A stretch of 64,000 nucleotides of DNA from Candidatus Thioglobus sp. (GTDB lineage: Bacteria > Pseudomonadota > Gammaproteobacteria > PS1 > Pseudothioglobaceae): assembly GCF_018644675.1 (NCBI RefSeq), contig NZ_JABGQC010000001.1; one strand, 5' to 3'. Under the pieces are notes generated by a model. It was not told the origin of the DNA, did no database searches, and saw only the letters and a program-made list of their open reading frames with translations. Of the stretch, positions 9,374 through 35,648 are shown one piece after another. The translations under genes and the position numbers were made by a program. Every line of letters starts with the position of its first letter. Positions within the stretch are counted from its first letter, which is position 1.

Positions 9374-9386
9374 GCAGTTAACAATA

Positions 9387-9413: not shown

Positions 9414-9462
9414 TTATTAAAGATAATTGTTATAGTTATTTTTAATAAAGAGTTTAATTTTG

Positions 9463-9476: not shown

Positions 9477-9561
9477 TGTTTGAATAGTGAATATGAGCAA
9501 AATTAATCCTTACAGAAGAGCTTTTAAATTAACAAAGAAGAGATAAAAAAAGGAGAAAAAT

Positions 9562-13305: not shown

Positions 13306-13325
13306 TAGGACTAGGAGAAGAAGAG

Positions 13326-14876: not shown

Positions 14877-14887
14877 GGAGAATTAAC

Positions 14888-15403
14888 ATGCAAATATTTA
14901 AGGTTTTATCAAAACTAATTGATTACCCAGATAAAGAGTTAATGGAGAATCTAGATTCAGTTATTGAATTTGTTAAAGATTCGTCAGAAATTGATGACAG
15001 TGAAAAGACAGCCATTATGGAGTTTATCTCTTGGATGGGTGTGCACACAGCAACTGGCATGCAACAAACCTATGTTGAAACATTTGACATGGTGCCAGAG
15101 CATGATCTACATCTAACGCACCATATTTTTGGTGACGACAATAGTCGTGGACCTGCTTTGATTGATTTATCTGAGCACTATAAAGGCGAAGGTTTGGAAG
15201 TGAATGATGGTGAAATTCCAGACTTCCTGCCTTTAATTTTAGAATATGTATCAACCCTAAGTGAGATGGAGTCACGTGTATTTTTGGGCGATGCCAAGAA
15301 AGTGATTAAAGTGATAGCGGACAATTTAGATGAGGCGGAAAGTCCTTATTCAAAATTGATTAGAATTATTGAAAAGCGCAGCTATTTAGCTGAAGCAGCA
15401 TAA
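14888..15403 (+). CDS. narJ: Nitrate reductase molybdenum cofactor assembly chaperone
   Basis: 171 aa acidic protein in the canonical slot between narH and narI. NarJ/TorD-like size and composition. Confidence 0.85.
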   Translation: MQIFKVLSKLIDYPDKELMENLDSVIEFVKDSSEIDDSEKTAIMEFISWMGVHTATGMQQTYVETFDMVPEHDLHLTHHIFGDDNSRGPALIDLSEHYKGEGLEVNDGEIPDFLPLILEYVSTLSEMESRVFLGDAKKVIKVIADNLDEAESPYSKLIRIIEKRSYLAEAA

Positions 15404-15414
15404 GGAGAAATGAC

Positions 15415-16110
15415 ATGAGTTTAGACAACTTTTTATTTGGAGTTTATCCATATATTGCCGGCGTGGTTTTTATTCTAGGCAGTTGGATTCGTTTTGATCG
15501 AGAGCAATATACCTGGAAAGCTGATTCATCGCAGTTGTTAGGCAACAAAGGCATGGTGTTAGCAAGTAATTTGTTCCATGTGGGTATTTTGGGAATTTTC
15601 TTCGGACATGCAGCAGGTATGTTGTTGCCACATAGCTGGTGGCAGTTAGTAGCAACTGATGTTCAGCATCAGTATATAGCTATTTATGCAGGCATGGTGT
15701 TTGGTGGCATGGCAGCGATTGGTGCGGCGCTACTTTTCTATCGTCGCATGACAAATGATAGAGTTAAGGCGGTGAGCCGTTTTCGAGATAATTTTGTGAT
15801 TTTTTGGCTATTGGCGACAGCAATGTTAGGTCTAAATACAATCTTTGGCTCACTACATCATGCTGAATCTGGAGATGTATCAACTATGTTAGTTCTGGCT
15901 GAATATGTTAAGAGTATTGCTACATTGAGTGTTGACCCAACATTACTAACAGGCGTTTCACATACCTATAAGTTGCATATGTTATTTGGTATGACACTGT
16001 TCTTGATATTTCCATTTACACGTTTAGTGCATGTTTGGTCTGTTCCGTTAACTTATCTCATGCGCCCATATCAAATTGTTAGAAGAAAGAATATTAAGAC
16101 ACACCTATAG
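15415..16110 (+). CDS. narI: Respiratory nitrate reductase gamma subunit (cytochrome b)
   Basis: 231 aa with five hydrophobic helices. Conserved His residues in helices 2 and 5 (FHVGILGIFFGH, KLHMLFG). Confidence 0.9.
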   Translation: MSLDNFLFGVYPYIAGVVFILGSWIRFDREQYTWKADSSQLLGNKGMVLASNLFHVGILGIFFGHAAGMLLPHSWWQLVATDVQHQYIAIYAGMVFGGMAAIGAALLFYRRMTNDRVKAVSRFRDNFVIFWLLATAMLGLNTIFGSLHHAESGDVSTMLVLAEYVKSIATLSVDPTLLTGVSHTYKLHMLFGMTLFLIFPFTRLVHVWSVPLTYLMRPYQIVRRKNIKTHL

Positions 16111-16121
16111 GAGGATTGTAA

Positions 16122-16307
16122 ATGCTTTATTTTGAAAGTGTCAAGAAGATGGAAATTATGGGTGTGAATGATAATTACATTCAAGGTTGGGTTGCAGGCT
16201 ATTTGCACAATCCAGAAATAGAGGAACAAAGAATAACTGCAGAATATGAGGCTGGCTACAAGGATGGCAAAGATAAGATTGACACTAATTTTGAAAATTT
16301 TTGCTAG
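16122..16307 (+). CDS. Hypothetical 61-aa protein, apparently co-transcribed with narGHJI
   Basis: Strong AGGAGG RBS overlaps the narI stop and the ATG is 6 nt downstream of it. No recognisable family. Confidence 0.45.
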   Translation: MLYFESVKKMEIMGVNDNYIQGWVAGYLHNPEIEEQRITAEYEAGYKDGKDKIDTNFENFC

Positions 16308-16364
16308 TCATAATTGATCTGAAAGTGGTTATATACTTTTAGTAAAAAAGGAGTTTAAATTAAG

Positions 16365-16700
16365 ATGATGATTAATAATCGAGACATAGAATTAGACCCG
16401 GAAGGCTACCTGATTCATCCTGAAGACTGGGATCATGACGTGGCTAATGAGCTTGCTAATTCTGAAAATATCGAGCTAGCAGATGACTACTGGACGGTAT
16501 TTGATTTTATGCGCAAGTTCTATGATGAAAATGGCGTTGCGCCTGATGTGCGTCATACAACAAAGCAAATGGTTGTTGATTTTGGTGTTGACAAAAAAGC
16601 TGCAAAAGCAAAATTGTTTACCATGTTCCCATACGGCTATGTCAAGCAGGCTTGCAAAGTTTCGGGTATGAAGCGCCCAAGAGGCTGGAGTACTGGGTAA
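16365..16700 (+). CDS. DsrC/TusE-family protein lacking the penultimate catalytic Cys
   Basis: 111 aa. EGYL, HW..F.F.R.FY and LF.MFPYG..KQACK motifs of DsrC/TusE are present. The C-terminus is ...KQACKVSGMKRPRGWSTG instead of ...KQACRFAGLPKPTGCV. Confidence 0.8.
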   Translation: MMINNRDIELDPEGYLIHPEDWDHDVANELANSENIELADDYWTVFDFMRKFYDENGVAPDVRHTTKQMVVDFGVDKKAAKAKLFTMFPYGYVKQACKVSGMKRPRGWSTG

Positions 16701-16711
16701 TCTTTTCAACC

Positions 16712-16897
16712 ATGAAATTATTTTTGTTTAAATTTTCTTGGGCGTTCTTTTGGTTGTTTTTTGGGCTAATGATCGCTCAATCTAGTCAAATATTTGAGCC
16801 GGTTTGGATTGCACTAATTATGTTATTAACGCTGTTAGTGGCAGATGCTCTAAAGTTGACTGTTAGAAAAATTAAGGCCCATCTTATTAGCACTTAA
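16712..16897 (+). CDS. Possible small two-helix membrane protein
   Basis: Internal ATG of track ORF 16652..16897. Sequence MKLFLFKFSWAFFWLFFGLMIAQ... is hydrophobic. No RBS. Confidence 0.25.
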   Translation: MKLFLFKFSWAFFWLFFGLMIAQSSQIFEPVWIALIMLLTLLVADALKLTVRKIKAHLIST

Positions 16898-17247
16898 AAA
16901 AGTAATAATAAGTTAGTAAATTACATGTTTCTCTCCCTGATTTTTGCAAGAGGGTATTGAACCCACCTTCTTCAAGTATGTAGTTTGCTAACTTATTGTT
17001 ATTTATTTCCAACCAGCACTATTTAATCTAGCTTGATAAAATCAAATCTATTGCGGCTATCCAAGCACAATAAAATCTAAAAATAAGTTCAATACACTGA
17101 CTCTATTTAGTTAAAGATGGTTAGATATATTCGCATTAAAAGTGGATGCTAGCGTGACTTTTTTGAAGCTTATGCAGTGTTAACTATTGAAACATTATTA
17201 CTTATAAAAAATTATGCAACCTAATCTCTATTGAGTTTATTTAGCTA

Positions 17248-17277
17248 TTGTCAGCTGGGTGGGCGTCGGTATATAAT
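17248..17277 (+). promoter_or_regulatory. Sigma70-type promoter TTGTCA-N18-TATAAT ahead of the HPP gene
   Basis: Read directly. A 9-bp 5'-UTR hairpin GCAACTTTA/TAAAGTTGC follows at 17283-17312. Confidence 0.45.
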
Positions 17278-17359
17278 GGCAAGCAACTTTATTGTTTAGA
17301 CAGTAAAGTTGCACGCATAAATTCTATACTGGGCAGTTGATAAAAAAGGGGAGAGGCTA

Positions 17360-17842
17360 ATTAATCATAAAGAGTTATTCATATCTATAATTGGTGCATT
17401 TATTGCGGTAGCCATGGCGGGTTTTTTTACCAATGTTATTCTTTCTAGTACAGACTCTCCATTAATTATTGCCTCAGCTGGTGCTTCGGCCATGCTTATG
17501 TTTGGCCTTCCACATTCTGATGTTTCTCACCCTTATAACCTAATTGCCGGACATACTGTTTCAGCTGTTGTGGGTGTTAGTTGTTATTATTTGGTTAGCG
17601 ATCCTATAATTTCAAGCTCTTTGGCTATTTCCTTGGCATTATTAATAATGAGTTTGCTCAAATGCATGCATCCACCAGGTGGTGCAACTGCGGTTATTGC
17701 GGTTGTTGGTGGCGAGGCGATTCATCAACTAGGTTATATGTTTGTTGTTATGCCAATTTTTCTAAATTCTTTGATGTTATTGGTGGTGGCAATTGCCGTT
17801 GCAAGCTTTAGAGATAAAAATCCATTTGAGAATTATTTATAA
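17360..17842 (+). CDS. HPP-family membrane protein (putative nitrite transporter), probably starting at a non-canonical ATT
   Basis: MHPPGGATA signature. The frame is open back to 17321. A strong SD GGGGAGAGG at 17348-17356 is followed by an in-frame ATT at 17360. The track start ATG 17414 has no RBS and would remove part of the first helix. Confidence 0.7.
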   Translation: MNHKELFISIIGAFIAVAMAGFFTNVILSSTDSPLIIASAGASAMLMFGLPHSDVSHPYNLIAGHTVSAVVGVSCYYLVSDPIISSSLAISLALLIMSLLKCMHPPGGATAVIAVVGGEAIHQLGYMFVVMPIFLNSLMLLVVAIAVASFRDKNPFENYL

Positions 17843-17846
17843 GTTT

Positions 17847-18083
17847 TTATCCACCAGTGACAGGCGGATAAAAAGCCACTTCATCTGCTGAGTTAATAAC
17901 AAGATCGTCATGGGCGATTTCTTGATTCACAGCGCAGAGGATATTATCAGGAAAGAAATGCTCGCTATATTTGTCAGCTAGGAGTGTTTTAAGCTGTTTA
18001 ACTGTTGTATTATCTGCTAGTTCGATATTCTCACTTGAAGTTTTAAGGTTTTCTTTAAGTGAGGCAAAGTAAAGTATGTTCAT
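17847..18083 (-). CDS. moaD: Molybdopterin synthase sulfur carrier subunit
   Basis: 78 aa with a ubiquitin-like fold and C-terminal ...PPVTGG. Confidence 0.85.
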   Translation of the reverse strand: MNILYFASLKENLKTSSENIELADNTTVKQLKTLLADKYSEHFFPDNILCAVNQEIAHDDLVINSADEVAFYPPVTGG

Positions 18084-19081
18084 CCGCCAATCTCCACCAT
18101 TTGTCTATTGCTAATATTGTCAATAGCCGTATTAAACTCGTGTTTTTCGGGTTTTTTATTGATCGCTGTAATAATCATCGTTTTTATCTTATCATCGCTT
18201 AAATCAGAACGTACTGCGTCCTTTAAAGAGATAGAGTCTTCTTGTCCTAGGCACAGGATAAGATCGCCTTTGGCGGTGAGTCTAACGCGGTTGCAGGTTT
18301 GGCAAAAATGATTAGAAACAGCGCTAATCACGCCAACTGTTGAATTGGTGTTGCTAATCTTGTAATTACTAGCAGGACCATCAGTTTTTTTAGGGGTGAT
18401 GGGGGTTAATCGACCTTCAAGGTGTTGATTAATTCTGGATAGAATCTCTTGTTCACTCATGTATTGAGATTGTGATTCAATTCCAGCTGCACCAATTGGC
18501 ATAGCTTCTATAAAACGAATATCTATTCCTTTGTCAATTGCAAAATCAATTAATGACTCTATCTCGTCATCATTAACCCCTCTCATGGCAACTGCATTAA
18601 TCTTAATCGGACTCATTCCCGCAGCAATGGCAGCATCAATACCTTTGATTACTTCGGCCACATCTCCACCACGAGTAATCTCTTTAAAGCGTTCAGGAAT
18701 CAACGAATCAATAGAGATGTTGGTTCTATTAATGCCATTTTCATGTAATTTTCCTGCAAATTTCTCAAGTAGCTGGGCATTGGTTGAAAGGGGTACATCG
18801 GTGATGCCAGGGGTTGAGCTGATTAATTTGGCAATTTTTACAATGCCGCGTCGCAACAATGGTTCGCCACCCGTTAGACGAACTTTAGTAACCCCCATTT
18901 CAGCAAAAATCCTGACAATTCTTTGAATATCTTCATAGCTCAAGATGTCTTCGCGCTTACAATCAGGCACATGCGCATCATCACGACAATAAAAACATCT
19001 GAAATTACAGTGCTCAGTAATAGAAATACGCAGGTAATTGATTTGCCTGCCAAATTTGTCAATAAGTTTAGGCATTATCAA
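18080..19081 (-). CDS. moaA: GTP 3',8-cyclase (radical SAM)
   Basis: 333 aa. CNFRCFYC radical-SAM cluster, C-terminal CxxCxnC, and GG tail. Confidence 0.95.
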
Positions 19082-19544
19082 GTGTCCAATGACCCGACTT
19101 TCCGCCTTGTTTTTCCAGTAATTGAACGTCGGTTACTTTCATAAATCGATCAACCGCTTTACACATGTCATAGATGGTTAATGCTGCAATGCTGGCGGCG
19201 GTTAAGGCTTCCATTTCAACGCCAGTTTGTGCATTAAGTTTGGCTAGAGTGGTGATCTGAATACCGTTGTCAATAAATTCAAAATCAACACTTATCTTTG
19301 AAAGGTTGAGGCTGTGACACATAGGGATTAAATGGTGGGTTTGTTTTGCCGCCATAATGCCTGCTATTCTTGCTACAGACAGGACATCGCCTTTTTTAAA
19401 GCCGTTATCTTTAATTTTTTGCAGCGTTTCTGACTTCATTAATATTTTGGCGCTGGCTTTGGCAATGCGTATTGTGTTGTCTTTATCGGAAACATCAACC
19501 ATATTGGCTTCGCCTTTGTTATTAACGTGCGTTAATTTGCTCAT
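19068..19544 (-). CDS. moaC: Cyclic pyranopterin monophosphate synthase
   Basis: 158 aa. Conserved MVDVSDK, HLIPMCH and [10 protein letters not shown] motifs. Confidence 0.95.
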
Positions 19545-20806
19545 AACATCATCTCGTTAAGGGGATAAAAATTAATCATTTCACCCGATTTAAAAACACT
19601 TTTTTCAGGAATTTCTGCAAAGCCATCTGCCCAGACCATTGAGGATAGAACGTCAGAGCCTTGTTTAGGATATTGATCTGCTTTAGCTGGAATGCTTGAT
19701 TGGTTCAGTTGAACACGCACAAATTCACGCCTTGGTTTGGGTCTGTGCCAGTCAAAATTAGCAGCTACTTTAAAATTGGTATTTAAGTAGTGACTACACC
19801 CTTGTATTTTTTTAATAAACGGACGAGCAAATAAAAGAAAAGTCACCATGGCTGAGACAGGATTTCCTGGTAGTCCAATAAAGGCTGATTGACCAACTTG
19901 ACCAAAGGCCAACGGCTTGCCAGGTTTCATTTTAATGCGCCAAAGATCAAGCTTTCCAAGTTGCTCTACTGCAGGTTTAACATGGTCCTCTTCTCCAACA
20001 GAGACACCACCTGTGGTGATAATTAGATCGCATTTATCTTGAAGTAGAGCCAAGGCTTTAACGGTGTCATCAAGTGTATCTTGAACATGATTAAGATTAA
20101 TGATGTCACAGTCTAAATTTTTAAGTAGCGCAGTCAAGGCGTATCTATTTGAATCGTAGATTTGCCCAGGCTCTAGGGTGTCACCTGGCTTGACTAATTC
20201 ATCGCCAGTGAAAAATACACCTACTTTAATTTTTTTAAATACCTCTAATTGACCAATACCAATGGAGGCGGCCAATGCAATAGCTTGAGGCTTGAGTTTT
20301 AAACCTTTTTTTAGAATGATATCATCGATTTTAATATCATTGCCCATTGGTCTGATATTTTCATTCAGATTGATGGGGCGATAAATTTCAATTTTAGAAT
20401 CCCCTTCAATCAATTCGCATTCTTCTTGCATAATGACCGTATTAGCACCTTTAGGTGTTGGTGCGCCAGTAAATATTCGTGCTGCACACCCTGGCTTTAA
20501 TTCGTGCCCCGTGGTGCCAGCAGGAATTCTTCCAGTAATCTCAAATGAGATGCCGCCCGGAGTGTTTATTTGATCTTTTTTAAGATGAATGGCGTAGCCA
20601 TCCATAGCAGAGTTATCAAATCCGGGTACATTAATATTAGAAAGGATGTTGGTGGCAAGTATGCGCCCAAGCGCCTCGTCTAATGCTACGAATTCAGTAG
20701 CATTAATAACCTTAGCTGCATTGGTCAGGGTTGTGAGTGCCTGGTCGGTTGATAGTAGGGATTGTGGTATTTCGTCACAGCCGCATTCAACACTTTGATT
20801 ATTCAT
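19541..20806 (-). CDS. moeA: Molybdopterin molybdenumtransferase
   Basis: 421 aa. MoeA N/linker domains plus the MoCF domain ([12 protein letters not shown]). Overlaps the moaC start. Confidence 0.9.
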
Positions 20807-21471: not shown

Positions 21472-22077
21472 GTGAATATTGAAATTTTTAATAAAATTTT
21501 GTTCTTTTGGTTTATATTTTTTGTGACACCAGGCCCAGTTTGGCTGGCCGTTATGGCAACAACTAATCAGCAAGCAGCAAAAGATATTGTTAAGTTTTTC
21601 TTTACTGTTTTTTTGAGTGTCAACCTAATCATTCAAGTCCCACAAGCCATTGTTAGCGTAGTATTTGTTGATATTATTACTCAGCTGTTTAGTGCTGCTG
21701 GCTATGTGTTTTATTTTCTTGGTGGTGCTTATATTTTATTTATGGCGGCAAAATCTTTTAAAGCAGGGTGGACTGACTCCCCACTTCAATTGAGTTTTGT
21801 TAACTTACTGATGATTATGCTGCTATCGCCCAAGATTTGGATTTTATTCCCTTCAGGCGCTGTTATCGCTAATCAATTAAATTTGGGGTTGATGGTGAAC
21901 GCTGGTATTTATGCGTTTATTATGTTTAGTGTCAGCTCAATACTATTTTACTTTTATGTGTTGATTGGAAAAATTGGCCAAAAATTATTAAAAGATAACT
22001 TTTCTTATTTGGTTACTTTTTTACTTGGTATTTTTGCAATGTTTTTATTCATACAAGGGTTTAAGCTAATTCTGTGA
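21472..22077 (+). CDS. LysE/RhtB-family small-molecule exporter
   Basis: 201 aa with six hydrophobic segments and the N-terminal FVTPGP motif. GTG start 3 nt after the mobA stop. Confidence 0.6.
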   Translation: MNIEIFNKILFFWFIFFVTPGPVWLAVMATTNQQAAKDIVKFFFTVFLSVNLIIQVPQAIVSVVFVDIITQLFSAAGYVFYFLGGAYILFMAAKSFKAGWTDSPLQLSFVNLLMIMLLSPKIWILFPSGAVIANQLNLGLMVNAGIYAFIMFSVSSILFYFYVLIGKIGQKLLKDNFSYLVTFLLGIFAMFLFIQGFKLIL

Positions 22078-22524
22078 TCGCCATTTATCGCTTTGTTGCA
22101 AGTCGCTGTCTTTTGCCTCTACCCATTTACTCTCAGTTGTCGTGTGTTCTTTTTTCCAAAAGGGTGCTTGAGTTTTAAGATAGTCCATTATAAATTCACA
22201 AGCCTCGAAAGCTGCTTTACGATGTTTGCTGGTGGTAATAACCAACACAATCTGATCATTAATTGATAATTCTCCAACCCGATGAATGACAGTTGTATTG
22301 CCAAGGGGCCAGCGTAATTGTGCTTGCTCCACAATAGAATTTAATGCTTTTTCTGTCATCCCTGGGTAATGCTCTAGCGTCATTTTATTAATGGATTCAT
22401 TGTCCAAATCACGCACCGTTCCAACAAAAGAAACCACAGCGCCAATGTCGCTGTCATTGCCTCTGGCTAGCGCCACTTCCATGGTTAGGTCAAAATCTTT
22501 TTCTTGTACAATAACTTTATTCAT
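22066..22524 (-). CDS. moaE: Molybdopterin synthase catalytic subunit
   Basis: 152 aa. GAVVSFVGTVRD, HYPGMTEK and APFWKKE motifs. Confidence 0.9.
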   Translation of the reverse strand: MNKVIVQEKDFDLTMEVALARGNDSDIGAVVSFVGTVRDLDNESINKMTLEHYPGMTEKALNSIVEQAQLRWPLGNTTVIHRVGELSINDQIVLVITTSKHRKAAFEACEFIMDYLKTQAPFWKKEHTTTESKWVEAKDSDLQQSDKWRSQN

Positions 22525-22589
22525 ACTTTTAATTATAGGACTATATATTGCAATGAGTTGTATTTTTATTCAGTTTATTCTAATATACT

Positions 22590-22598
22590 AAACAAAAT
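22590..22598 (+). promoter_or_regulatory. Extended -10 promoter element TGGTATAAT for the nas leader
   Basis: TGnTATAAT read directly. It is about 240 nt upstream of the nirB ATG. Confidence 0.4.
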
Positions 22599-22611
22599 TT
22601 GGTATAATTAC

Positions 22612-22648
22612 ACTCAGTTACTTCCCAAAGACGGGAACAGCAACAAAC
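22612..22648 (+). promoter_or_regulatory. ANTAR-type dual hexaloop hairpins (P1 TTCCC[AAAGAC]GGGAA; P2 AAAC[ACAGAC]GTTT)
   Basis: Both loops are 6 nt with A at position 1 and G at position 4. A 7-nt linker separates them. The P2 3' arm is part of the 5' arm of terminator T1. Confidence 0.45.
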
Positions 22649-22695
22649 ACAGACGTTTATTTTTTAAATCCATTTAAGTGGGTTTTAAAATAAGC
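22643..22695 (+). terminator. Leader terminator T1
   Basis: About 19-bp imperfect stem, ACGTTTATTTTTTAAATCCA / TGGGTTTTAAAATAAGCGT, followed by a T9 run. The U-tail is on the plus strand only. Confidence 0.7.
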
Positions 22696-22736
22696 GTTTT
22701 TTTTTGCCAATTTTAAAGATGAAATTGGCCCCAAGG
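22696..22736 (+). promoter_or_regulatory. Second possible dual-hexaloop module (P3 GCCAATTTT[AAAGAT]GAAATTGGC; P4 GGT[ATTGAA]GCC)
   Basis: P3 has a 9-bp stem. P4 has only 3 bp, but its 3' arm overlaps the 5' arm of T2. Both loops have A1/G4. Confidence 0.3.
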
Positions 22737-22785
22737 TATTGAAGCCGGCTATTAATCTATGCAATTTTGCTAGAGATAATAGCCG
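22732..22785 (+). terminator. Leader terminator T2, about 50 nt before the nirB start
   Basis: Perfect 13-bp stem AAGCCGGCTATTA / TAATAGCCGGCTT, with inner pairing as well, followed by a T8 run. Confidence 0.8.
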
Positions 22786-22837
22786 GCTTTTTTTTGGCTT
22801 AAAAAAAGTCATTGATTAACGCATATAGGTATAAAAA

Positions 22838-25219
22838 ATGAAAAATTTAGTAATTGTTGGTTCAGGTATGAGTGCTATGAAGGTGGTGGATGAGGTATTG
22901 AAAATAGATCCATTAATGTATCGCATCATCATTATTGGTGCAGAGACGGTAATGCCTTACAACAGGATTATGTTGTCACCAGTATTAGCTGGAGAGAAAG
23001 AGTTTGAAGATATCAAAACTCATGGTGAAGAATACTTTGTGCAAAACAATATTACTTTCAAGCCAGGCTATGAGGTTACTACTGTTGATAGAAAGTCCAA
23101 AAATGTATCTATTAGCAATATTCAAAGTCAAGAGAGTGATTTAATTAACTATGATCGCCTGGTTATTTGTACAGGATCAACGCCATTTATTTTGCCACTA
23201 CCTGGTAAAGAGCTTGATGGTGTGGTTTCATTTAGAGATATCTATGATGTTGAGTATATGCAGTCTAAGGCTGGTAAAAATTTGAAGGTGGCTGTTATTG
23301 GCACTGGGTTATTAGGTCTTGAGGCGGCAAATGGTTTAAATGAACTTGGATTTGATGTGACCGTTATTGGCAATATGAACTCCATTATGAATATGCAGTT
23401 AGATGCCTCTTCAGGTGGTTTACTGCAAAAGGTGTTAGAACAAAAAAATATCAATTTTAAGTTGAATGCAATTACAACTAATATTATTGGTCAAGAAAGT
23501 GTTGAATCATTAGAGTTTGAAGATGGATCAATGATGGATGTCGACATGGTAGTCATGTCAGTTGGTATTGTGCCAAATGATGAACTCGCTAAGAATATTG
23601 GCCTGCATACGGATCGAGGTATTATGGTTGGTGATACGATGATGACCTCAGATCCTGCTATTTATTCGGTGGGAGAATGTATTAAACATCGTGGCATGTC
23701 ATATGGATTGGTGGCACCATTATTCGAACAAGCTAGAGTTTGTGCAGAGCAAGTATGTGAAGTGTCGCACCATATGTATACCGGATCAGATATTTCCACT
23801 AAGCTAAAAATTTCTGGGGTGGATGTATTCTCAGCGGGCGAGTTTGACAATGAAGATGATGAGATTATGTGTTCTAAGGATCATTCATTAAACACTCGAA
23901 AACGCTTATCAATTAGAGATAACAAATTAGTGGGCGCAGTGCTTTTTGGTGACTCTACTGACGGTCTGTTTTATTTTGATTTAATTAAAAATGAAACAGA
24001 CATTACCGACTTGCGTAAAACTTTGTTATTTGGCGATATTAGCATTGATAGTGCTTCTGCTGGATCTGTTGGTGTTGAAAAAATGGCTAATGATGAGCAG
24101 GTTTGTGGCTGTTTGGGCGTGACCAAAGGCGACATTGTGACAGCTGTTGCTGGTGGTTGTGATAACTTTGAGGCCGTACAAGAGGAAACGGGTTGTGGCA
24201 CGGGTTGTGGTGGTTGTACATCAGTAGCAAAACAAATTTTTAGCTTTGTATCAGGTGCTGAATTGGTTGTCAAAGATACGCTATGTGATTGCACAACGCA
24301 CACCACCGAAGAAGTTCGGAAGTATGTTAGATCATTAGAAAAGCTAGTAGATATTGACAAGGTTAGATCATCTCTAGGGTTTGATGGATCATGTGAAAAA
24401 TGTGGTGCAGCAATCAACTACTACCTTTCTTCACAGTTTAATGAAGAGTATGAGCATAATGATCAAGAGCGACCACACAATGAAATGATGCACGCCAATC
24501 TGCAAAATGATGGTACTTATTCAATTGTGCCACAAATGCAGGGCGGACTAACAACACCAGAAGAGCTTAAAGCGTTAGCTGATATTGCTGTCAAATATGA
24601 AGTGCCAACCGTGAAAGTAACCGGTGGTCAGCGTATTGATTTACTAGGCATTCCTAAAGAAAATTTAAATGATATGTGGAGTGAAATTGCTGCTGCGGGC
24701 ATGGAGTCAGGTTATGCCTATGGTAAGGCAACTAGAACTTGCAAATCTTGTGTTGGTAAGGATCATTGTTTAATGGGAACTCAAGACTCGATGGGTCTAT
24801 CGATAAAAATGGAAGACGCCGTTTGGTCGCATTTTATGCCGCACAAATTCAAGATGGGTGTGAGTGGTTGTCCGCGTAACTGTGCGGAAGCAACCATTAA
24901 AGATTTTGGTGTTATTTGTACCGAAAAAGGCTATGAGATTCATGTGGCAGGTGCTTGTGGTATTCGCACCAAGGCTTGCCTAAAAGATCGATTCTTTGAA
25001 ACAGAAGACGAGGTAATTGAATATCTTAAAGCATTTACCCAACTTTATCGTATAGAGGCAAATTATTTAGAGCGTGTGATGCATTTTGAAGAGCGTGTAG
25101 GACTTGAATATATTCAATCAAAATTAGACACACCTGAAAAAATCAAGCATTGGGCAGCTCAACTACCTCAAAGCCTTAAAAATCCGTGGTTAACAACAAA
25201 TCATCGATTGTCTGTTTAA
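22838..25219 (+). CDS. nirB: NAD(P)H-dependent assimilatory nitrite reductase large subunit
   Basis: 793 aa. N-terminal FAD/NAD GSGMSA fold, BFD-like 2Fe-2S region (CGCLGVTKGDI, CGTGCGGC), and sirohaem/4Fe-4S site (CKSCVGKDHC, SGCPRNCAEA). Confidence 0.9.
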   Translation: MKNLVIVGSGMSAMKVVDEVLKIDPLMYRIIIIGAETVMPYNRIMLSPVLAGEKEFEDIKTHGEEYFVQNNITFKPGYEVTTVDRKSKNVSISNIQSQESDLINYDRLVICTGSTPFILPLPGKELDGVVSFRDIYDVEYMQSKAGKNLKVAVIGTGLLGLEAANGLNELGFDVTVIGNMNSIMNMQLDASSGGLLQKVLEQKNINFKLNAITTNIIGQESVESLEFEDGSMMDVDMVVMSVGIVPNDELAKNIGLHTDRGIMVGDTMMTSDPAIYSVGECIKHRGMSYGLVAPLFEQARVCAEQVCEVSHHMYTGSDISTKLKISGVDVFSAGEFDNEDDEIMCSKDHSLNTRKRLSIRDNKLVGAVLFGDSTDGLFYFDLIKNETDITDLRKTLLFGDISIDSASAGSVGVEKMANDEQVCGCLGVTKGDIVTAVAGGCDNFEAVQEETGCGTGCGGCTSVAKQIFSFVSGAELVVKDTLCDCTTHTTEEVRKYVRSLEKLVDIDKVRSSLGFDGSCEKCGAAINYYLSSQFNEEYEHNDQERPHNEMMHANLQNDGTYSIVPQMQGGLTTPEELKALADIAVKYEVPTVKVTGGQRIDLLGIPKENLNDMWSEIAAAGMESGYAYGKATRTCKSCVGKDHCLMGTQDSMGLSIKMEDAVWSHFMPHKFKMGVSGCPRNCAEATIKDFGVICTEKGYEIHVAGACGIRTKACLKDRFFETEDEVIEYLKAFTQLYRIEANYLERVMHFEERVGLEYIQSKLDTPEKIKHWAAQLPQSLKNPWLTTNHRLSV

Positions 25220-25233
25220 CTTAGGGAAATACT

Positions 25234-26700
25234 ATGGAAGATAAATTAAATCTATTTTCATTTAAAGGCAAGACTCGGATTCTGCATCTGACCTGGTTTG
25301 CTTTTTTCATGACTTTTGTTGTCTGGTTGAGTCTAGGTCCAATGATGCCCTTTATCCAAGAGGCATTATCATTAACTGAGCAGCAAGCAAAGGTATTGTT
25401 AATTTTAAATGTTGCCATGACCATTCCATCCAGAATTGTTGTGGGCATGCTGGTTGATAAATTTGGCCCCAAAATATTATTTTCAAGTATCTTAATTTTA
25501 GGTGGTCTTATATCTATTATTTTTAGCTGGATGCAAACGTACGAACAATTAGCGCTAATGAGATTTTTATCAGGCTTTATTGGCGCAGGTTTCGTAGTTG
25601 GTATTCGCATGATATCTGAATGGTTTCCAGCGAAACAAACGGGTGTTGCTCAGGGTATTTATGGTGGCTGGGGAAACTTTGGTTCAGCGGGTGCAGCAGT
25701 CTCTTTGCCATTCATTGCAGCCAGTTTTGGCGATGTTGATGGCTGGCGCTACGCCATTACTATCGCAAGTATTTTGGCGATTGCTTACGGTGTTTTTTAT
25801 TACTTTAATGTCACCAATACACCAAAAGGCTCAACCTACTTCAAGCCCAAAAAATCAGGTGCTATGGAAGTTAGTAATAAGTGGGATTTGCTACTGTATG
25901 TTTTGATGAATATACCGTTGTATTTAGCATTATCTCTATTAACCTGGAAGTTATCTCCGGCAAATATGAACATGATTTCATCTAATACTGAGCTGAGTGT
26001 GTATTTGATATTAGTGCTAGTATTTGTCTTACAAGTGTATAAGACTTGGCAGGTGAACGCTAGCATCCTCAAAGTGCCCGTGCCTAAACAGCATCAATAT
26101 AAATTTAAACAAGTGGCTATTTTAGATTGGGCATACTTTGTTACCTTCGGTACCGAGTTGGCAGTGGTTTCAATGTTGGCGATGTTTTATGTTGACTGGT
26201 TCGAATTGCCTAAAATTACAGCAGCATTATTGGCAGGTGTTTATCCATTCATTAATTTATTTGCCCGACCAGGCGGGGGTTATTTAAGTGATAAATACGG
26301 ACGAAAATTAACTTTAATTGTTGCCTTTTCGGGCGTTACCTTAAGTTTTATAGCTTTAGGAAATGTCGACAAAGGGTGGTCTATCTATGCCGTAGTTGCA
26401 TTAACCATCTTGGGCGGTATATTCTCCAAGGCAGGCTCAGGTGCAATTTTTGCTATGGTGCCACTGATTCAAAGACGGTTAACAGGTCAAATAGCTGGCA
26501 TGGCAGGTGCTTTTGGTAATGTGGGTGCCGTACTATTCCTAACTGTCAATTCATTGGTTGATTATGATCAGTTCTTTATGCTGATTGGCGCTGTTAGTTT
26601 TGTTGTTCTAGTGCTTATCGTGATTTTCCTAGAAGAGCCAAAAGGTCATATGACTGAAGTGCTAGATGATGGAACTGTTGAAATTATTAAATTAAACTAA
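25234..26700 (+). CDS. MFS nitrate transporter (NrtP/NasA-transporter type)
   Basis: 488 aa polytopic MFS protein, 14 nt after nirB, in the assimilation operon. Confidence 0.85.
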   Translation: MEDKLNLFSFKGKTRILHLTWFAFFMTFVVWLSLGPMMPFIQEALSLTEQQAKVLLILNVAMTIPSRIVVGMLVDKFGPKILFSSILILGGLISIIFSWMQTYEQLALMRFLSGFIGAGFVVGIRMISEWFPAKQTGVAQGIYGGWGNFGSAGAAVSLPFIAASFGDVDGWRYAITIASILAIAYGVFYYFNVTNTPKGSTYFKPKKSGAMEVSNKWDLLLYVLMNIPLYLALSLLTWKLSPANMNMISSNTELSVYLILVLVFVLQVYKTWQVNASILKVPVPKQHQYKFKQVAILDWAYFVTFGTELAVVSMLAMFYVDWFELPKITAALLAGVYPFINLFARPGGGYLSDKYGRKLTLIVAFSGVTLSFIALGNVDKGWSIYAVVALTILGGIFSKAGSGAIFAMVPLIQRRLTGQIAGMAGAFGNVGAVLFLTVNSLVDYDQFFMLIGAVSFVVLVLIVIFLEEPKGHMTEVLDDGTVEIIKLN

Positions 26701-26704
26701 GAAT

Positions 26705-28405
26705 ATGAAACAATTAAAAGTCACTGTCGACTCCTCCTCTATTGCTGGCATCAAGTCGGAAAATCAAGATGCTTGCTCTTATCATGTGCCTGATACCAAG
26801 GCGGTTGAATACAAAGGTGTTGCTGCGGTAATTTCTGATGGTGTTAGTGCATGTGAGCGTGCACGTGAGGCGAGCGCTTGTTGTGTTAATGGATTTTTAA
26901 GTGATTATTACTCAACACCTGATTCTTGGAGCGTTGAGCATTCAGCTACTAAGGTAATTTCCGCACTTAATAATTGGCTATATTCACAATCGATGAGGTC
27001 CAACGAAGTTTCTTCGATGCTTTCAACGCTTAGTGCGATTGTTTTTAAATCAAATATAGCGCATGTATTTCATGTTGGGGATTCACGAATTTATCGAATT
27101 CGTTCAGGTGTGTTGACTCAGATCACTAAAGATCATGTGCTTAATCTTAATAAAGAAAAAACCTATCTCTCCAGAGCAATGGGATTTGATCTTAAAATTA
27201 ATGTGGATTACCAGACATTTGATTTAGCATTGGATGATCAATTTTTAATGACAACAGATGGTGTGCACGACTATTTGGATAATTCATTGCTTGAAATACT
27301 CATGAATCGAGGATCGAAATCCAGTGATATTATTGATAGAGCAGTGAACAAAGGTAGCTTGGATAATTTATCCGCCATGATTGTTAAGATTGAGCAACTA
27401 CCTGAAAAAAATCTGAATGAGGCTTTTGATGAGTTAACCCAAAGACCGGTGCCACCTGATCTCACTCAGGGTATGAAAATTAATGGATTTGAGGTGGAAT
27501 CACTATTGGTGTCTAGTTCAAAGATGCAGCTCTATAAAGCCAAAGACATTGCCTCTTCTCAGTTAGTGGCACTCAAAACCCCATCGGTTAATTTTGAAGA
27601 TGACCCACAGTACTTAAAGAATTTTATGTATGAAAAATGGGTTGGTCAGCGTGTACAAAGCCCGCATGTAGTCAAGATTTACAACAATAATGAGCAGTCT
27701 AATTTTATGGCGTATGCGATGGAATACATCAAAGGTCAAACTTTACGAGCATGGATGGATGAGCATCCAAACCCAGAGGTTGAAGTGGTGGTTAGTTTTG
27801 TTAAGCAAATTATTCAAGGACTTCGAGCATTTCATCGTCAAGAGATGCTTCATTGTGATCTCAAGCCTGAAAATATCATGATTGATGAAATTGGCCAAAT
27901 TAAGCTTATTGATTTTGGCTCAGCAAGAATTGCAGGCGTTACAGAACTAGTCAGCCCTATTCATACCGTGGGTAATCAGGGTACGCAAGGGTATACTGCC
28001 CCTGAGGTAATTTTGGATGAGCGCGTTTCACAAGTCTCTGACCAATTTAGTTTGGGTGCTATTGTGTATGAGATGTTTGCCTCGACCTTGCCTTATGAAG
28101 ATAAGCTGGATAAAAATTTAAATGCCAAAAAATTGTCTAAATTAAGATATGAATCAACCCTTGTGCACAACCCTAATTTGCCAATATGGATTGATGGCGC
28201 TATTAGAAAAGCTTGCTGTCTCGATCACACCAAAAGGTACGAGGTTTTAAGTGAATTTTTATACGATTTAGAGTATCCGAATTCAAAATTTTTAAGCTTG
28301 CAAAAGGATAAAAAACCAGAATCTGAGCTAAACAAATACAGACTTTGGATAGCATTGTCTTTCGCGGTTAATTTTGTATTGCTGTTATTGTTAATTATTA
28401 AATAA
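26705..28405 (+). CDS. Bifunctional PP2C phosphatase / Hanks-type Ser-Thr protein kinase with a C-terminal membrane anchor
   Basis: PP2C motifs ENQDAC, ISDGVSA, VGDSRIY, TTDGVHD and DNLSAM. Kinase motifs ALKTP, HCDLKPENIM, DFGSAR and GTQGYTAPE. C-terminal LWIALSFAVNFVLLLLLII. Confidence 0.85.
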   Translation: MKQLKVTVDSSSIAGIKSENQDACSYHVPDTKAVEYKGVAAVISDGVSACERAREASACCVNGFLSDYYSTPDSWSVEHSATKVISALNNWLYSQSMRSNEVSSMLSTLSAIVFKSNIAHVFHVGDSRIYRIRSGVLTQITKDHVLNLNKEKTYLSRAMGFDLKINVDYQTFDLALDDQFLMTTDGVHDYLDNSLLEILMNRGSKSSDIIDRAVNKGSLDNLSAMIVKIEQLPEKNLNEAFDELTQRPVPPDLTQGMKINGFEVESLLVSSSKMQLYKAKDIASSQLVALKTPSVNFEDDPQYLKNFMYEKWVGQRVQSPHVVKIYNNNEQSNFMAYAMEYIKGQTLRAWMDEHPNPEVEVVVSFVKQIIQGLRAFHRQEMLHCDLKPENIMIDEIGQIKLIDFGSARIAGVTELVSPIHTVGNQGTQGYTAPEVILDERVSQVSDQFSLGAIVYEMFASTLPYEDKLDKNLNAKKLSKLRYESTLVHNPNLPIWIDGAIRKACCLDHTKRYEVLSEFLYDLEYPNSKFLSLQKDKKPESELNKYRLWIALSFAVNFVLLLLLIIK

Positions 28406-28411
28406 AGAAAT

Positions 28412-29866
28412 ATGAGCTTTAAAACAACCTGTCCTTATTGTGGTGTTGGCTGCGGCATAGATATCAGTCGATCAGGATCAACCCTGAAGCTAACGGGCGA
28501 TAAAGCCTCGCCTGTTAACCAGGGAATGTTATGCATTAAAGGCCAAACCCTATTAGAAACGGTTGGCACTGATGAAGATAGACTGCTATATCCATCAATT
28601 GGTAGTTGGGAAAAAGCTGTACACACCATTCGTGATAATTTTTTAACCACGCCAAAGAGTGAAATTGCCTTGTATGTATCCGGGCAAATGTTGATGGAAG
28701 ACTTGTACGTGGCCAAGAAATTTGCAGACGCATTCGGCATTAAAAATATCGAGAGTAATTCTCGCTTGTGTATGTATTCAACAGTGGAAGCCAATAAAAG
28801 AGCCTATGGCGCTGATATTGTTCCTGTTTCTTATAATGATATTTACTTAGCTGAAACCATTTTTATCATTGGTAGCAATACCGCTGATTGCCATCCAATT
28901 GTGTTTAACCATATTAAAAAATCCAAAGCTTTTGTGGTGTGTGTTGATGTGTATGAAACCACAACTGCCAAAAGATCAGATTTATTTATTAAAGTAAAGG
29001 CAGGCCAGGATATGACGCTGATTGATGATTTGGTGAATCAGCCCTGGTTTAAAGATAAAAAAACGCTCAGTATTTACTCCCAAGGGCTAACCCAATCAAC
29101 CGATGCTACTGACAAAGTAAACGCTTTGATTAATGCACATATTTATACAGGCAATATTAACAAACCCGGTTGTGGTGTTTTGTCGCTCACCGGCCAGTCA
29201 AATGCTATGGGTGGGCGCGAGTTGGGTATACGAACAGCCGATCTAACTGCAACAGAATTTTTCTCAACAGAGCAAATTAAAACCCTCTGGGTAATGGCGA
29301 CAAATCCAGCCCATAGCATGATTAACTACCGACAATTTGACACTTTGATCGTTTCAGACTTTACCAAAACACTCACTACAGAAGATGCGGATATCATTCT
29401 GCCGGCATGCTCTTGGAGTGAGAAAACAGGTCATCAAAAAAATTCAGAGCGTCGGTATTTAAAGCAAAACGCCTTCTTGCCTCCAGCAGGAGAGTCCAAG
29501 CCAGATTGGGAGATTATTTGTCTGGTGGCCAAGTCACTTGGTCTTAAGGGTTTTGAGTATCAATCTGCAGCTGAAATATGGCATGAGATGGATGTTGATC
29601 AGCATTGGTCAGCTCAAGTTAAAGTGCCTGAAATACCGGTTGAAATTAAAAGTACTAATCGTAACTACGAAAACTCTATTAACAATGGTCGGTTGCTGAC
29701 GCAGTGGCATGGCATGTCTCGCACTCAAAAAAGCAAAACTCTAAATGAAATGACAAAGCAAAATCCTGATACAGTGTCAATACATCATATCACCAATGCT
29801 GAGCTATTTAAAGATAAGGAAGTTGAGTTAGATCGTTACTCAAGGCAGCCGTGTTTTAAGGGCTAG
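28412..29866 (+). CDS. nasA: Assimilatory nitrate reductase catalytic subunit homologue, strongly shortened (484 aa)
   Basis: N-terminal [11 protein letters not shown] 4Fe-4S motif, Mo-ligand region [19 protein letters not shown] and TNPAHS motifs. It ends inside the C-terminal barrel domain, and its stop overlaps the convergent pdxB stop. Confidence 0.7.
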
Positions 29867-35382: not shown

Positions 35383-35637
35383 ATGGAGCAGACTAAGGAT
35401 AGTATTGATATTTGTGGCGTTTTAGTGCACACAAGTAAAGGTAAGGAAGAAGAGGTAAAAAATGCACTCAGCATAATAGAAGGCGTCGAAGTGCATCATA
35501 CAACACAAGATTCACGATTACTAGTCACCATTGAGCTCCAAGGCAGACAACAAATTATGGATACCATGGGCAGTTTTAACGATATACCTTATGTAATTTC
35601 TACTGTATTAACTTACCAACACTCAGAAGAAGTATAG
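35383..35637 (+). CDS. napD: NapD, NapA signal-peptide-binding chaperone
   Basis: About 84 aa from ATG 35383; the track ORF starts at GTG 35371. ICGVLVHT...VEVHH...LLVTIE pattern of NapD. First gene of the nap cluster. Confidence 0.8.
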   Translation: MEQTKDSIDICGVLVHTSKGKEEEVKNALSIIEGVEVHHTTQDSRLLVTIELQGRQQIMDTMGSFNDIPYVISTVLTYQHSEEV

Positions 35638-35648
35638 GCTTGGGCAGT

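What the first reader, a model, noticed from the sequence alone, without database searches (positions are those of the whole stretch)
22590..22837. Tandem ANTAR-style antitermination leader in front of the assimilatory nirB operon, with no ANTAR regulator gene in the window
Between a TGGTATAAT extended -10 element (22590) and the nirB ATG (22838) there are two strong plus-strand intrinsic terminators: T1 at 22643-22695 with T9, and T2 at 22732-22785 with a perfect 13-bp stem and T8. moaE points away from this region, so the terminators cannot belong to it. Each terminator is preceded by a pair of hexaloop hairpins. P1 is TTCCC[AAAGAC]GGGAA and P2 is AAAC[ACAGAC]GTTT. P3 is GCCAATTTT[AAAGAT]GAAATTGGC and P4 is GGT[ATTGAA]GCC. 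All four loops have A at position 1 and G at position 4. The 3' arms of P2 and P4 are shared with the 5' arms of T1 and T2. This is the architecture described for ANTAR-domain antiterminators (NasR, NasT, EutV, AmiR). Two modules in series would be an unusually tight double gate. P4 has only 3 bp and is weak. An alternative reading is that the promoter plus T1 define a ~90-nt sRNA.
Basis: partly seen in the sequence, partly recalled or inferred. Interest (0 to 1): 0.66.

Follow-up and report, generated by a model that had tools for sequence, protein, structure and literature searches.

The report
Tandem NasT-type antitermination leader of nirB
The untranslated leader of the nitrite-reductase operon in this SUP05-clade sulfur oxidiser carries two "protein-opened terminator" switches in series. 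It is a well-conserved but previously undescribed example of a known bacterial nitrogen-control mechanism (ANTAR/NasT antitermination).

Summary
A conserved TATAAT (22603-22608) is followed by two modules. Each module has two short hairpins with A at loop position 1 and G at position 4, and the second hairpin shares its 3' arm with a strong intrinsic terminator (T1 -16.3 kcal/mol with U9; T2 -26.0 kcal/mol with U8). A descriptor taken from the published ANTAR definition hits exactly these two sites in 64 kb (0.13 expected).

The whole tandem leader is conserved upstream of nirB in 26 SUP05-clade genomes (Thioglobus, Ruthia, Vesicomyosocius, Bathymodiolus symbionts), with abundant compensatory changes.

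The window has no ANTAR gene. The clade, however, universally encodes a NasT-like REC+ANTAR protein elsewhere, just downstream of glnK-amtB. That operon carries a paralogous tandem leader.

The best model is NasT-dependent, two-step antitermination with a default-off state.

Novelty is modest. ANTAR leaders before nirB are known, and tandem same-leader ANTAR hits already appear in Ramesh et al. 2012, Table S2. New here are:
- the SUP05 instance;
- the glnK-amtB/nirB regulon;
- a NasT whose receiver lacks the phospho-acceptor Asp;
- no NasS gene next to nasT or nirB.

Nothing has been tested experimentally.

The parts
22600..22608 (+). Promoter -10 element TGGTATAAT (extended -10). The predicted transcription start is near 22615-22617.
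   Evidence: Read. The TATAAT hexamer (22603-22608) is invariant in 27/27 aligned leaders. No other promoter-like site lies between T2 and the nirB ATG.
22617..22644 (+). P1 hairpin TTCCC[AAAGAC]GGGAA (22622-22637), with a lower extension GUU(22617-19)/AAC(22642-44). Proposed recruitment hairpin of module 1.
   Evidence: -5.6 kcal/mol. Loop A1 in 26/27 and G4 in 27/27. The stem shows CG/UA/UG variation. RNAalifold predicts both the stem and the GUU/AAC extension.
22645..22658 (+). P2 hairpin AAAC[ACAGAC]GTTT. Proposed antiterminator hairpin of module 1, 7 nt after P1.
   Evidence: Only -0.4 kcal/mol on its own. Loop A1 and G4 in 26/27 alignment rows; the exception, L018, has a 1-nt insertion giving a 7-nt loop. 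In L002/L039, A-U changes to G-C in P2 and the shared base also changes U-A to C-G in T1.
22653..22705 (+). Intrinsic terminator T1: stem 22653-22697 and U9 tract 22697-22705.
   Evidence: -16.3 kcal/mol. Basal 10 bp are 98% paired across 27 sequences, with 4 pairs showing double changes. The 5' arm shares 22655-22658 with P2.
22706..22729 (+). P3 hairpin GCCAATTTT[AAAGAT]GAAATTGGC. First hairpin of module 2; it starts directly after the T1 U-tract.
   Evidence: -9.6 kcal/mol. 7 of 9 pairs show compensatory changes. The loop core AAAG/AAGG is conserved, but the loop register and length (5-7 nt) are ambiguous in some relatives.
22735..22746 (+). P4 hairpin GGT[ATTGAA]GCC. Proposed antiterminator hairpin of module 2, 5 nt after P3.
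   Evidence: 3 bp, -0.9 to -2.3 kcal/mol. The loop is AUUGAA in 22/26, with A1 and G4 in 26/26. It is among the most conserved segments of the leader. In paralogous glnK leaders the motif is GGU-A(U/A)(A/U)GAA-GC(C/U). Only U.G<->C-G variation is seen in the stem.
22743..22795 (+). Intrinsic terminator T2: stem 22743-22788 and U8 tract 22788-22795.
   Evidence: -26.0 kcal/mol. 9 of the 11 basal pairs show compensatory changes; 93.6% paired. The 5' arm shares 22744-22746 with P4.
22838..29866 (+). Regulated operon: nirB (22838-25219), NarK-like MFS transporter (25234-26700), PP2C-Ser/Thr kinase fusion (26705-28405), short NasA-like molybdopterin oxidoreductase (28412-29866).
   Evidence: Pfam assignments. 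The genes are tightly spaced on one strand.

Best explanation
The 5' leader of the nirB-narK-kinase-nasA operon is a two-stage transcription attenuator of the ANTAR type.

Proposed mechanism:
1. Transcription starts a few bases after a conserved TATAAT.
2. By default the nascent RNA folds into terminator T1. Any polymerase that escapes T1 meets terminator T2, so the operon is off and short RNAs of about 88 nt and about 180 nt are made.
3. When the clade's NasT-like protein (pseudo-receiver plus ANTAR domain, encoded elsewhere next to glnK-amtB) is active, a dimer binds the A..G.. loops of P1 and P2. This clamps the intrinsically unstable P2 and withholds the GUUU strand that T1 needs.
4. A second binding event at P3/P4 withholds the GCC strand that nucleates T2.
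5. Full-length mRNA therefore needs two independent antitermination events. That gives low leakage and a steeper response to active NasT.

The same tandem design sits in front of glnK-amtB (with nasT just downstream), so NasT probably co-ordinates ammonium uptake, PII and nitrate/nitrite assimilation.

What is shown and what is inferred:
- Shown: the RNA elements, their mutual exclusivity, their conservation and covariation, and the presence of NasT in the clade.
- Inferred: that NasT binds these sites, the order of events, the signal, and the gain from having two gates.
For: RNA elements in the window:
- Sequence and geometry were read.
- Linkers of 7 and 5 nt lie within the 5-12 nt range found in functional eut sites (PMC3369931).
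- All four loops have A1/G4, the residues shown to be required for NasT action on the Pseudomonas putida nirBD leader NalA (PMC10783516).
- P2 (-0.4) and P4 (-0.9 to -2.3 kcal/mol) are far weaker than T1 (-16.3) and T2 (-26.0). The default state is therefore termination, and a stabilising factor is needed.
- The literature-derived descriptor hits only these two sites in the window; 0.13 are expected.

Conservation:
- 27 leaders were aligned. 93.9% of cells are paired in the terminator state, against 35-49% when the partners are slid. 21 pairs have double changes.
- RNAalifold independently predicts P1, T1, P3 and T2, with 26 of 42 pairs compensatory.
- A three-way change in L002/L039 preserves both P2 and T1 pairings of the shared strand.

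Regulator:
- Pfam finds ANTAR (1.9e-19) plus Response_reg in L018:3585-4187.
- Homologues at 70-91% identity occur in Thioglobus, Ruthia magnifica, Vesicomyosocius and Pseudothioglobus.
- The closest solved structures are EutV, Rv1626 and NasR.

Second target:
- Tandem modules lie upstream of glnK-amtB in L041-44, L018, L050 and L051.
- These leaders align over their full length with the nirB leader at 69% column identity.

No promoter-like site lies between T2 and the nirB ATG.
Against: - There is no experimental evidence for a transcription start, termination or protein binding.
- The regulator gene is not in the window, and its presence in this particular genome could not be checked.
- P4 has only 3 bp (one is G.U) and shows no double-sided covariation.
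- The P3 loop is 5-7 nt in some relatives (for example UAAGAUA in Vesicomyosocius, AAAAGU register in L006), so module 2 is less canonical.
- No Rfam 15 family matched the region even at E <= 10. This may only mean that no ANTAR-target model is curated.
- No NasS-like gene lies next to nasT or nirB, so the activating signal is unknown.
- A terminator-like hairpin sits in the amtB-nasT spacer, so autoregulation of nasT is uncertain.
- The descriptor was written after seeing the site, although it follows the published definition.
Confidence: 0.8

Rival explanations
1. The promoter plus T1 is chiefly a small-RNA gene producing a stable RNA of about 88 nt that acts in trans. nirB expression would depend on something else.
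For: There is a strong conserved -10 and an efficient-looking T1. The analogous Pseudomonas leader is treated as an RNA in its own right, NalA (PMC10783516).
Against: No promoter-like site lies between T2 and the nirB ATG. The same leader precedes a second N-metabolism operon, which points to a cis role. The conserved features are those of a cis antiterminator: P2/T1 and P4/T2 share strands. The short RNA is the expected by-product of attenuation, so this rival is not exclusive.
Confidence: 0.08
2. Only module 1 is a regulated ANTAR switch. Module 2 (P3 plus T2) is a constitutive partial terminator or RNA-stability element, and 'P4' is a coincidence.
For: P4 has 3 bp and no compensatory changes. 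The P3 loop length varies. One relative (L038, genome OZ255703.1) manages with a single module before nirB.
Against: GGYAUUGAAGCC is among the most conserved stretches of the leader. Its loop varies only at positions 2-3, while A1 and G4 are invariant in 26/26. The same motif recurs in glnK leaders as AUAGAA or AAAGAA. The 5-nt linker and the overlap with T2 fit the ANTAR definition, and the descriptor scan picks it up independently.
Confidence: 0.1
3. The hairpins are recognised by a different factor: a metabolite (riboswitch) or a non-ANTAR RNA-binding protein.
For: The ANTAR gene is unlinked to nirB in the window. The clade NasT has a degenerate receiver and no adjacent NasS.
Against: No multi-helix ligand pocket is conserved and nothing matches in Rfam. 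The conserved nucleotides are exactly the A1/G4 loop signature of ANTAR targets. NasT is retained even in the roughly 1.0-Mb vesicomyid symbiont genomes that keep the nirB leader.
Confidence: 0.04

Closest known systems
NasT / NalA leader of nirBD in Pseudomonas putida and P. aeruginosa (PMC10783516)
   Same: A leader of an assimilatory nirB operon. Two hexaloop hairpins with essential A1 and G4. The second hairpin competes with a Rho-independent terminator. The regulator is a REC+ANTAR protein.
   Different: Pseudomonas has one module and a NasS sensor partner. According to that paper's introduction, nas transcription there also depends on NtrC and RpoN. Here there are two modules in series and a sigma-70-like TATAAT. 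nasT is unlinked to nirB and lies behind glnK-amtB. No NasS is adjacent, and the receiver lacks the phospho-acceptor Asp.
Tandem ANTAR-target hits in Desulfotomaculum acetoxidans, D. carboxydivorans and Pelotomaculum thermopropionicum (Ramesh et al. 2012, Table S2)
   Same: Two dual-hairpin/terminator hits 80-250 nt apart on the same strand, upstream of the same nitrogen genes. Examples: 34402/34596 before amt-PII; 813893/813992 before urea genes; 651231/651312 before amt-PII.
   Different: These are Firmicutes, only tabulated and never analysed as tandem gates. The regulators are different and presumably phosphorylatable. They are not nirB leaders.
NasR / nasF leader of Klebsiella oxytoca
   Same: Nitrate-assimilation operon leader with an ANTAR-dependent antiterminator (PMC3369931, PMC7496416).
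   Different: NasR is a one-component NIT+ANTAR protein, and the leader has a single module.
EutV/EutW control of the Enterococcus faecalis eut locus (PMC3369931, PMC8934654)
   Same: Defines the motif: dual hexaloops, linker constraint, P2/terminator overlap, and dimer binding with a recruitment hairpin and an antitermination hairpin.
   Different: The four sites are spread over separate intergenic regions, not stacked in one leader. The regulator is activated by phosphorylation.
Tandem riboswitches and tandem T-boxes (from general knowledge, not checked here)
   Same: Two complete sensor-terminator units in series in one leader, thought to lower leakage and sharpen the response.
   Different: The ligand is a metabolite or tRNA, not an ANTAR protein.

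Membership tests
ANTAR-target RNA (dual-hexaloop antiterminator; Ramesh et al. 2012) | Two adjacent hairpins, each with a stem of at least 3 bp | tested here: met
   P1 5 bp, P2 4 bp, P3 9 bp, P4 3 bp. The definition was read.
ANTAR-target RNA (dual-hexaloop antiterminator; Ramesh et al. 2012) | Hexanucleotide loops with A at position 1 and G at position 4 | tested here: met
   Window loops are AAAGAC, ACAGAC, AAAGAU and AUUGAA. Across relatives: P1 A1 26/27 and G4 27/27; P2 26/27; P4 26/26. The P3 loop register is ambiguous in several relatives.
ANTAR-target RNA (dual-hexaloop antiterminator; Ramesh et al. 2012) | Short linker between the hairpins (5-12 nt in functional eut sites; 3 or 14 nt impair function) | tested here: met
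   7 nt (22638-22644) and 5 nt (22730-22734).
ANTAR-target RNA (dual-hexaloop antiterminator; Ramesh et al. 2012) | The second hairpin is mutually exclusive with a downstream intrinsic terminator | tested here: met
   The P2 3' arm 22655-58 is the base of the T1 5' arm, and the P4 3' arm 22744-46 is the base of the T2 5' arm. A three-way covariation in L002/L039 preserves both pairings.
ANTAR-target RNA (dual-hexaloop antiterminator; Ramesh et al. 2012) | An ANTAR-domain protein is encoded in the same genome | tested here: inconclusive
   None is in the 64-kb window, and the rest of this genome is not available. In relatives it is met: L018 carries nasT and both leaders on one contig. Genome OZ255703.1 has both nasT and the leader. 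NasT is found throughout the clade.
ANTAR-target RNA (dual-hexaloop antiterminator; Ramesh et al. 2012) | Protein binding and protein-dependent read-through | not testable with these tools
   Needs EMSA, in vitro transcription or reporter assays.
NasS-NasT nitrate-responsive two-component regulator (PMC3795266) | NasT has an N-terminal REC-like domain plus a C-terminal ANTAR domain | tested here: met
   Pfam Response_reg plus ANTAR on the clade protein. However, the phospho-acceptor Asp is Asn and the conserved Lys is Asp in alignments to EutV and Rv1626.
NasS-NasT nitrate-responsive two-component regulator (PMC3795266) | A cognate NrtA-like NasS sensor, typically co-transcribed with nasT | tested here: not met
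   The neighbours of nasT are glnK, amtB (or a CBS-domain gene in clam symbionts), tatC, and in one genome an RNase H gene. No NMT1/NrtA-like gene lies within the flanks retrieved around nasT (4-10 kb each side) or around nirB (up to 10 kb each side). A NasS elsewhere in the genome was not tested.
NasS-NasT nitrate-responsive two-component regulator (PMC3795266) | Induction by nitrate or nitrite | not testable with these tools
   Requires expression data. The paralogous leader on glnK-amtB hints at a broader nitrogen-status signal (inference).
Rho-independent (intrinsic) terminator | A stable G+C-containing stem-loop immediately followed by a U-tract | tested here: met
   T1 -16.3 kcal/mol plus U9. 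T2 -26.0 kcal/mol plus U8. Stems covary and U-tracts are conserved.
Any curated Rfam 15 family | Covariance-model score at or above the gathering threshold | tested here: not met
   The best hit was tsr26 at 24.5 bits against a gathering score of 141. Nothing was relevant at E <= 10.

The most novel reading that the evidence does not exclude
In the SUP05 clade, a phosphorylation-incompetent NasT is the master nitrogen-status regulator. It has Asn at the acceptor site, no adjacent NasS, and is encoded directly behind glnK-amtB. It would gate both ammonium uptake/PII and nitrate/nitrite assimilation through paralogous double attenuators. Its activity would be set by sequestration by the PII protein GlnK (or, in clam symbionts, the CBS protein fused to its operon) rather than by nitrate sensing. 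This would be an RNA-level substitute for the usual NtrBC/sigma-54 control in these streamlined genomes.
Probability: 0.15. Interest if true: 0.6.

Novelty: new member of a known kind. Interest (0 to 1): 0.4.

Why it matters
SUP05 bacteria are among the most abundant chemoautotrophs in oxygen-minimum zones and at hydrothermal vents. They are also the symbionts of vent mussels and clams. How they decide between ammonium and nitrate/nitrite assimilation affects marine nitrogen-loss budgets.

This leader gives a concrete, testable handle:
- a small regulon (nirB operon and glnK-amtB) switched by one RNA-binding protein;
- predicted prematurely terminated RNAs (about 88 and about 180 nt) that can be looked for in existing metatranscriptomes as an in situ read-out of nitrogen status.

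For RNA biology, it is a well-supported natural case of stacked ANTAR attenuators. It could be used to measure what a second protein-dependent gate buys. It also pairs them with a NasT that apparently works without phosphorylation and without a neighbouring NasS.

Tried and rejected
- **Rfam scan** of 22000-23400 at E <= 10: only chance hits.
- **Built-in terminator scan:** it missed T1 and T2 because of loop and stem limits, so folding was used instead.
- **Leader-peptide attenuation:** the only ATG in the leader (22719) opens a 7-codon ORF without an SD and is not conserved. Rejected from reading the sequences.
- **Terminators serving moaE:** rejected, because moaE is divergent.
- **ORF201 (21472-22077) as a cryptic ANTAR protein:** no Pfam hit even at E <= 1, and no ANTAR HMM hit.
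- **Dual hairpins without a terminator requirement:** 20 in the window against 18.2 +/- 4.7 expected. That relaxed motif alone carries no information.
- **Prior description in SUP05, Ruthia or Bathymodiolus symbionts:** none found in the library. 'SUP05 + NasT' hits refer to the NAST aligner. Ramesh Table S2 contains no Ruthia or Vesicomyosocius entry. A 2025 review has no mention of tandem ANTAR sites.
- **Identifying the window's genome:** its NirB occurs on many marine metagenome contigs of 200 kb or less, and no complete genome was found, so nasT could not be linked to it.
- **NasA truncation:** a suspected truncation of NasA (484 aa) in the window was rejected. The short form is conserved clade-wide.
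- **Own covariance model:** not built, because it would be circular for the window.

Full report
**1. What is there**

The 313-bp gap between divergent moaE (22066-22524, minus strand) and nirB (ATG at 22838) was read. Gene identities come from Pfam. The downstream operon is:
- nirB (793 aa);
- a NarK-like MFS transporter;
- a PP2C-Ser/Thr kinase fusion;
- a 484-aa NasA-like molybdoenzyme.

- TGGTATAAT is at 22600-22608, not 22590.
- T1 is 22653-22697 plus U9 (22697-22705).
- T2 is 22743-22788 plus U8 (22788-22795).

The four hairpins are as quoted, and all four loops have A1 and G4:
- P1 22622-22637
- P2 22645-22658
- P3 22706-22729
- P4 22735-22746

The P2 3' arm (GUUU) is the base of the T1 5' arm. 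The P4 3' arm (GCC) is the base of the T2 5' arm.

**2. Is it more than chance?**

- The leader folds at -71 kcal/mol, z = -6.96.
- Individually, T1 is -16.3 and T2 is -26.0 kcal/mol. P2 (-0.4) and P4 (-0.9 to -2.3) are marginal. The default fold is therefore two terminators, and the antiterminator hairpins need outside stabilisation.
- I wrote a descriptor from the published ANTAR-target definition: stems of at least 3 bp, hexaloops with A1/G4, a short linker, and the second hairpin overlapping a terminator (PMC3369931). Over both strands of the 64-kb window it returns exactly two hits, the two modules. Markov-simulated sequence gives a mean of 0.13.
- Without the terminator requirement the motif is uninformative (20 found, 18 expected).
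- The linkers (7 and 5 nt) lie within the 5-12 nt range found in functional eut sites.
- Rfam 15 has nothing matching.
- The built-in terminator scanner missed T1 and T2 because of their long, bulged stems.

**3. Origin and conservation**

A scan of one-genome-per-species contigs with NirB returned 40 loci. The loci with 64-90% NirB identity are SUP05-clade: Thioglobus, Ruthia, Vesicomyosocius, Thiodubiliella and Bathymodiolus symbionts, including loci titled only as Gammaproteobacteria, Piscirickettsiaceae or Proteobacteria MAGs. Six more distant loci (L030-L035, 45-48% identity) are Halofilum, Ectothiorhodospiraceae, Spectribacter and Salinisphaeraceae. The window's exact NirB occurs on many marine metagenome contigs.

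In 26 relatives with NirB identity of at least 79%, the whole tandem leader is present. TATAAT is invariant.

On the MAFFT alignment, which was not fitted to any structure:
- The terminator-state structure is 93.9% paired, against 35-49% when the partners are slid.
- 21 of 35 pairs have double changes.
- RNAalifold independently predicts P1 (with a GUU/AAC extension), T1, P3 and T2, with 26 of 42 pairs compensatory.

For the antiterminator state, the variation in P2 and P4 is mostly one-sided. One informative event occurs in L002/L039: P2 A-U becomes G-C, and the shared base simultaneously keeps its T1 pairing (U-A becomes C-G). This is what two alternative pairings of one strand predict.

Loop signatures:
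- P1: A1 26/27, G4 27/27.
- P2: 26/27. The exception, L018, has a 7-nt loop.
- P4: AUUGAA in 22/26, with A1 and G4 in 26/26.
- P3: a long, strongly covarying stem. Its loop (AAAG/AAGG core) is 5-7 nt in some lineages, so module 2 is less canonical.

The strict descriptor recovers module 1 in 20 and module 2 in 16 of the 26 relatives. It gives one probable false positive in about 0.8 Mb.

**4. The regulator**

The window has no ANTAR ORF. This rests on a six-frame HMM search, which served as its own positive control by finding ANTAR ORFs in L018 and L033-35, and on tblastn with a clade NasT.

- The L018 ORF is REC+ANTAR by Pfam.
- Homologues at 70-91% identity occur in Thioglobus, Pseudothioglobus, Ruthia magnifica and Vesicomyosocius, including genomes of about 1.0 Mb.
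- In seven loci examined, nasT lies just downstream of glnK-amtB. In clam symbionts amtB is lost and a CBS-domain gene abuts nasT. The downstream neighbour is convergent tatC in most loci.
- No NrtA/NMT1-like NasS is nearby.
- Alignment to EutV (6WSH) and Rv1626 (1S8N) puts Asn at the phospho-acceptor Asp and Asp at the conserved Lys. The receiver is therefore a pseudo-receiver.

**5. A second target**

The descriptor scan also found tandem modules upstream of glnK-amtB:
- L041-44 at 7873-8027;
- L018, minus strand, at 9329-9150;
- L050 and L051, found by eye.

These leaders align with the nirB leader over their whole length at 69% column identity, so the two leaders are paralogous.

Other lineage patterns:
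- In genome OZ255703.1 the glnK leader is tandem but the nirB leader has a single module.
- In Ruthia and vesicomyid symbionts the glnK leader is decaying along with amtB, while the nirB leader stays intact.
- A terminator-like hairpin in the amtB-nasT spacer leaves nasT autoregulation open.

**6. Mechanism**

The best-supported model is NasT-dependent antitermination at two serial gates, as laid out in the best explanation. The structural work on EutV supports one dimer using a recruitment hairpin and an antitermination hairpin under a linker constraint (PMC8934654). The P. putida work shows that A1/G4 of both loops are needed for NasT action on a nirBD leader (PMC10783516).

The following steps are inference: that SUP05 NasT binds these sites, that each gate needs its own binding event, and that the signal is nitrogen status or nitrate.

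**7. Comparison and novelty**

- ANTAR leaders before nitrate/nitrite genes are common in Ramesh et al., Table S2.
- The same table lists same-strand pairs 80-250 nt apart before one gene set in Desulfotomaculum acetoxidans, D. carboxydivorans and Pelotomaculum thermopropionicum. A double ANTAR gate is therefore not unprecedented, though it was never analysed as such.
- No SUP05, Ruthia or Vesicomyosocius entry is in that table.
- No paper in the library links ANTAR to these organisms.

I therefore class this as a new member of a known kind, with three variant features worth follow-up: stacked gates in a NasT system, a glnK-amtB plus nirB regulon, and a non-phosphorylatable NasT without an adjacent NasS.

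**8. Verdict**

Confidence in the ANTAR-type tandem attenuator is about 0.8. Interest is moderate (0.4).

Noticed in passing
window 28412-29866 (+): The NasA-like molybdopterin oxidoreductase is only 484 aa. It has the Fe4S4 and Molybdopterin domains but no C-terminal Molydop_binding domain, and it abuts a convergent gene. The short form is conserved end to end in about 20 SUP05 loci, so it is a clade trait and not a local truncation. How it works as a nitrate reductase is unclear.
   Followed up: partly
window 26705-28405 (+): A PP2C phosphatase-Ser/Thr kinase fusion (566 aa) is embedded between the NarK-like transporter and the NasA-like gene in the nirB operon. It is a possible post-translational layer of nitrate-assimilation control.
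   Followed up: no
window ~22567-22585 (+), upstream of the -10: An imperfect palindrome TATTCAG-N-CTAATA (ATTAG-N6-CTAAT in L006, L011, L021; imperfect in L013, L029) is centred about 40 bp upstream of the predicted start. Ruthia-type loci carry a different palindrome (AATTAAGT-N7-ACTTAATT) at the same place. It looks like a Crp/Fnr-family class II site. A Crp-family ORF lies at 32270-32995.
   Followed up: no
L023, L024, L026, L027 (upstream of nirB; NirB 64-66% identical): Distant Thioglobus relatives have two or three A1/G4 hexaloop hairpins followed by a hairpin that sequesters the Shine-Dalgarno sequence (TCCTT...AAGGA), with no U-tract. This may be translational rather than transcriptional ANTAR control.
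   Followed up: no
L038 / L050 (genome OZ255703.1): In the same genome the nirB leader has one module while the glnK-amtB leader has two. This suggests the tandem form is older on glnK, or that modules are gained and lost independently.
   Followed up: partly
L045 9510-10525 and L052 3564-4588 (Ruthia magnifica, Vesicomyidisocius): In clam symbionts amtB is lost, and a 146-aa CBS-domain gene sits immediately upstream of nasT; in L052 it overlaps the nasT start by 4 nt. The glnK leader there shows decayed P2/P4, while the nirB leader stays intact.
   Followed up: partly
L002, L005, L007, L028, L039 (next to the nirB leader): A short repeated element (CCTTTGCATAAATAGGGATGATTAGCAAAAT and its complement) recurs beside the leader in Bathymodiolus-symbiont loci. 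In L028 it is inserted between T2 and the nirB start codon. It looks like a MITE.
   Followed up: no
L001 8426-8636: This MAG lacks the P4 hairpin and the 5' arm of T2 (about 17 nt missing relative to its near-twin L005). This is either a real deletion that disables the second gate or an assembly artefact.
   Followed up: no
window 1-20000 and 35600-43000: The window is dense in nitrogen and sulfur respiration genes: CbbQ/NorQ-like, NarK-like MFS, a narGHJI-type set (delta and gamma subunits confirmed), DsrC, moaA/C/E, moeA, mobA, napB with flanking ferredoxins, and soxYZ. None of these carries an ANTAR-type leader by the descriptor scan.
   Followed up: partly
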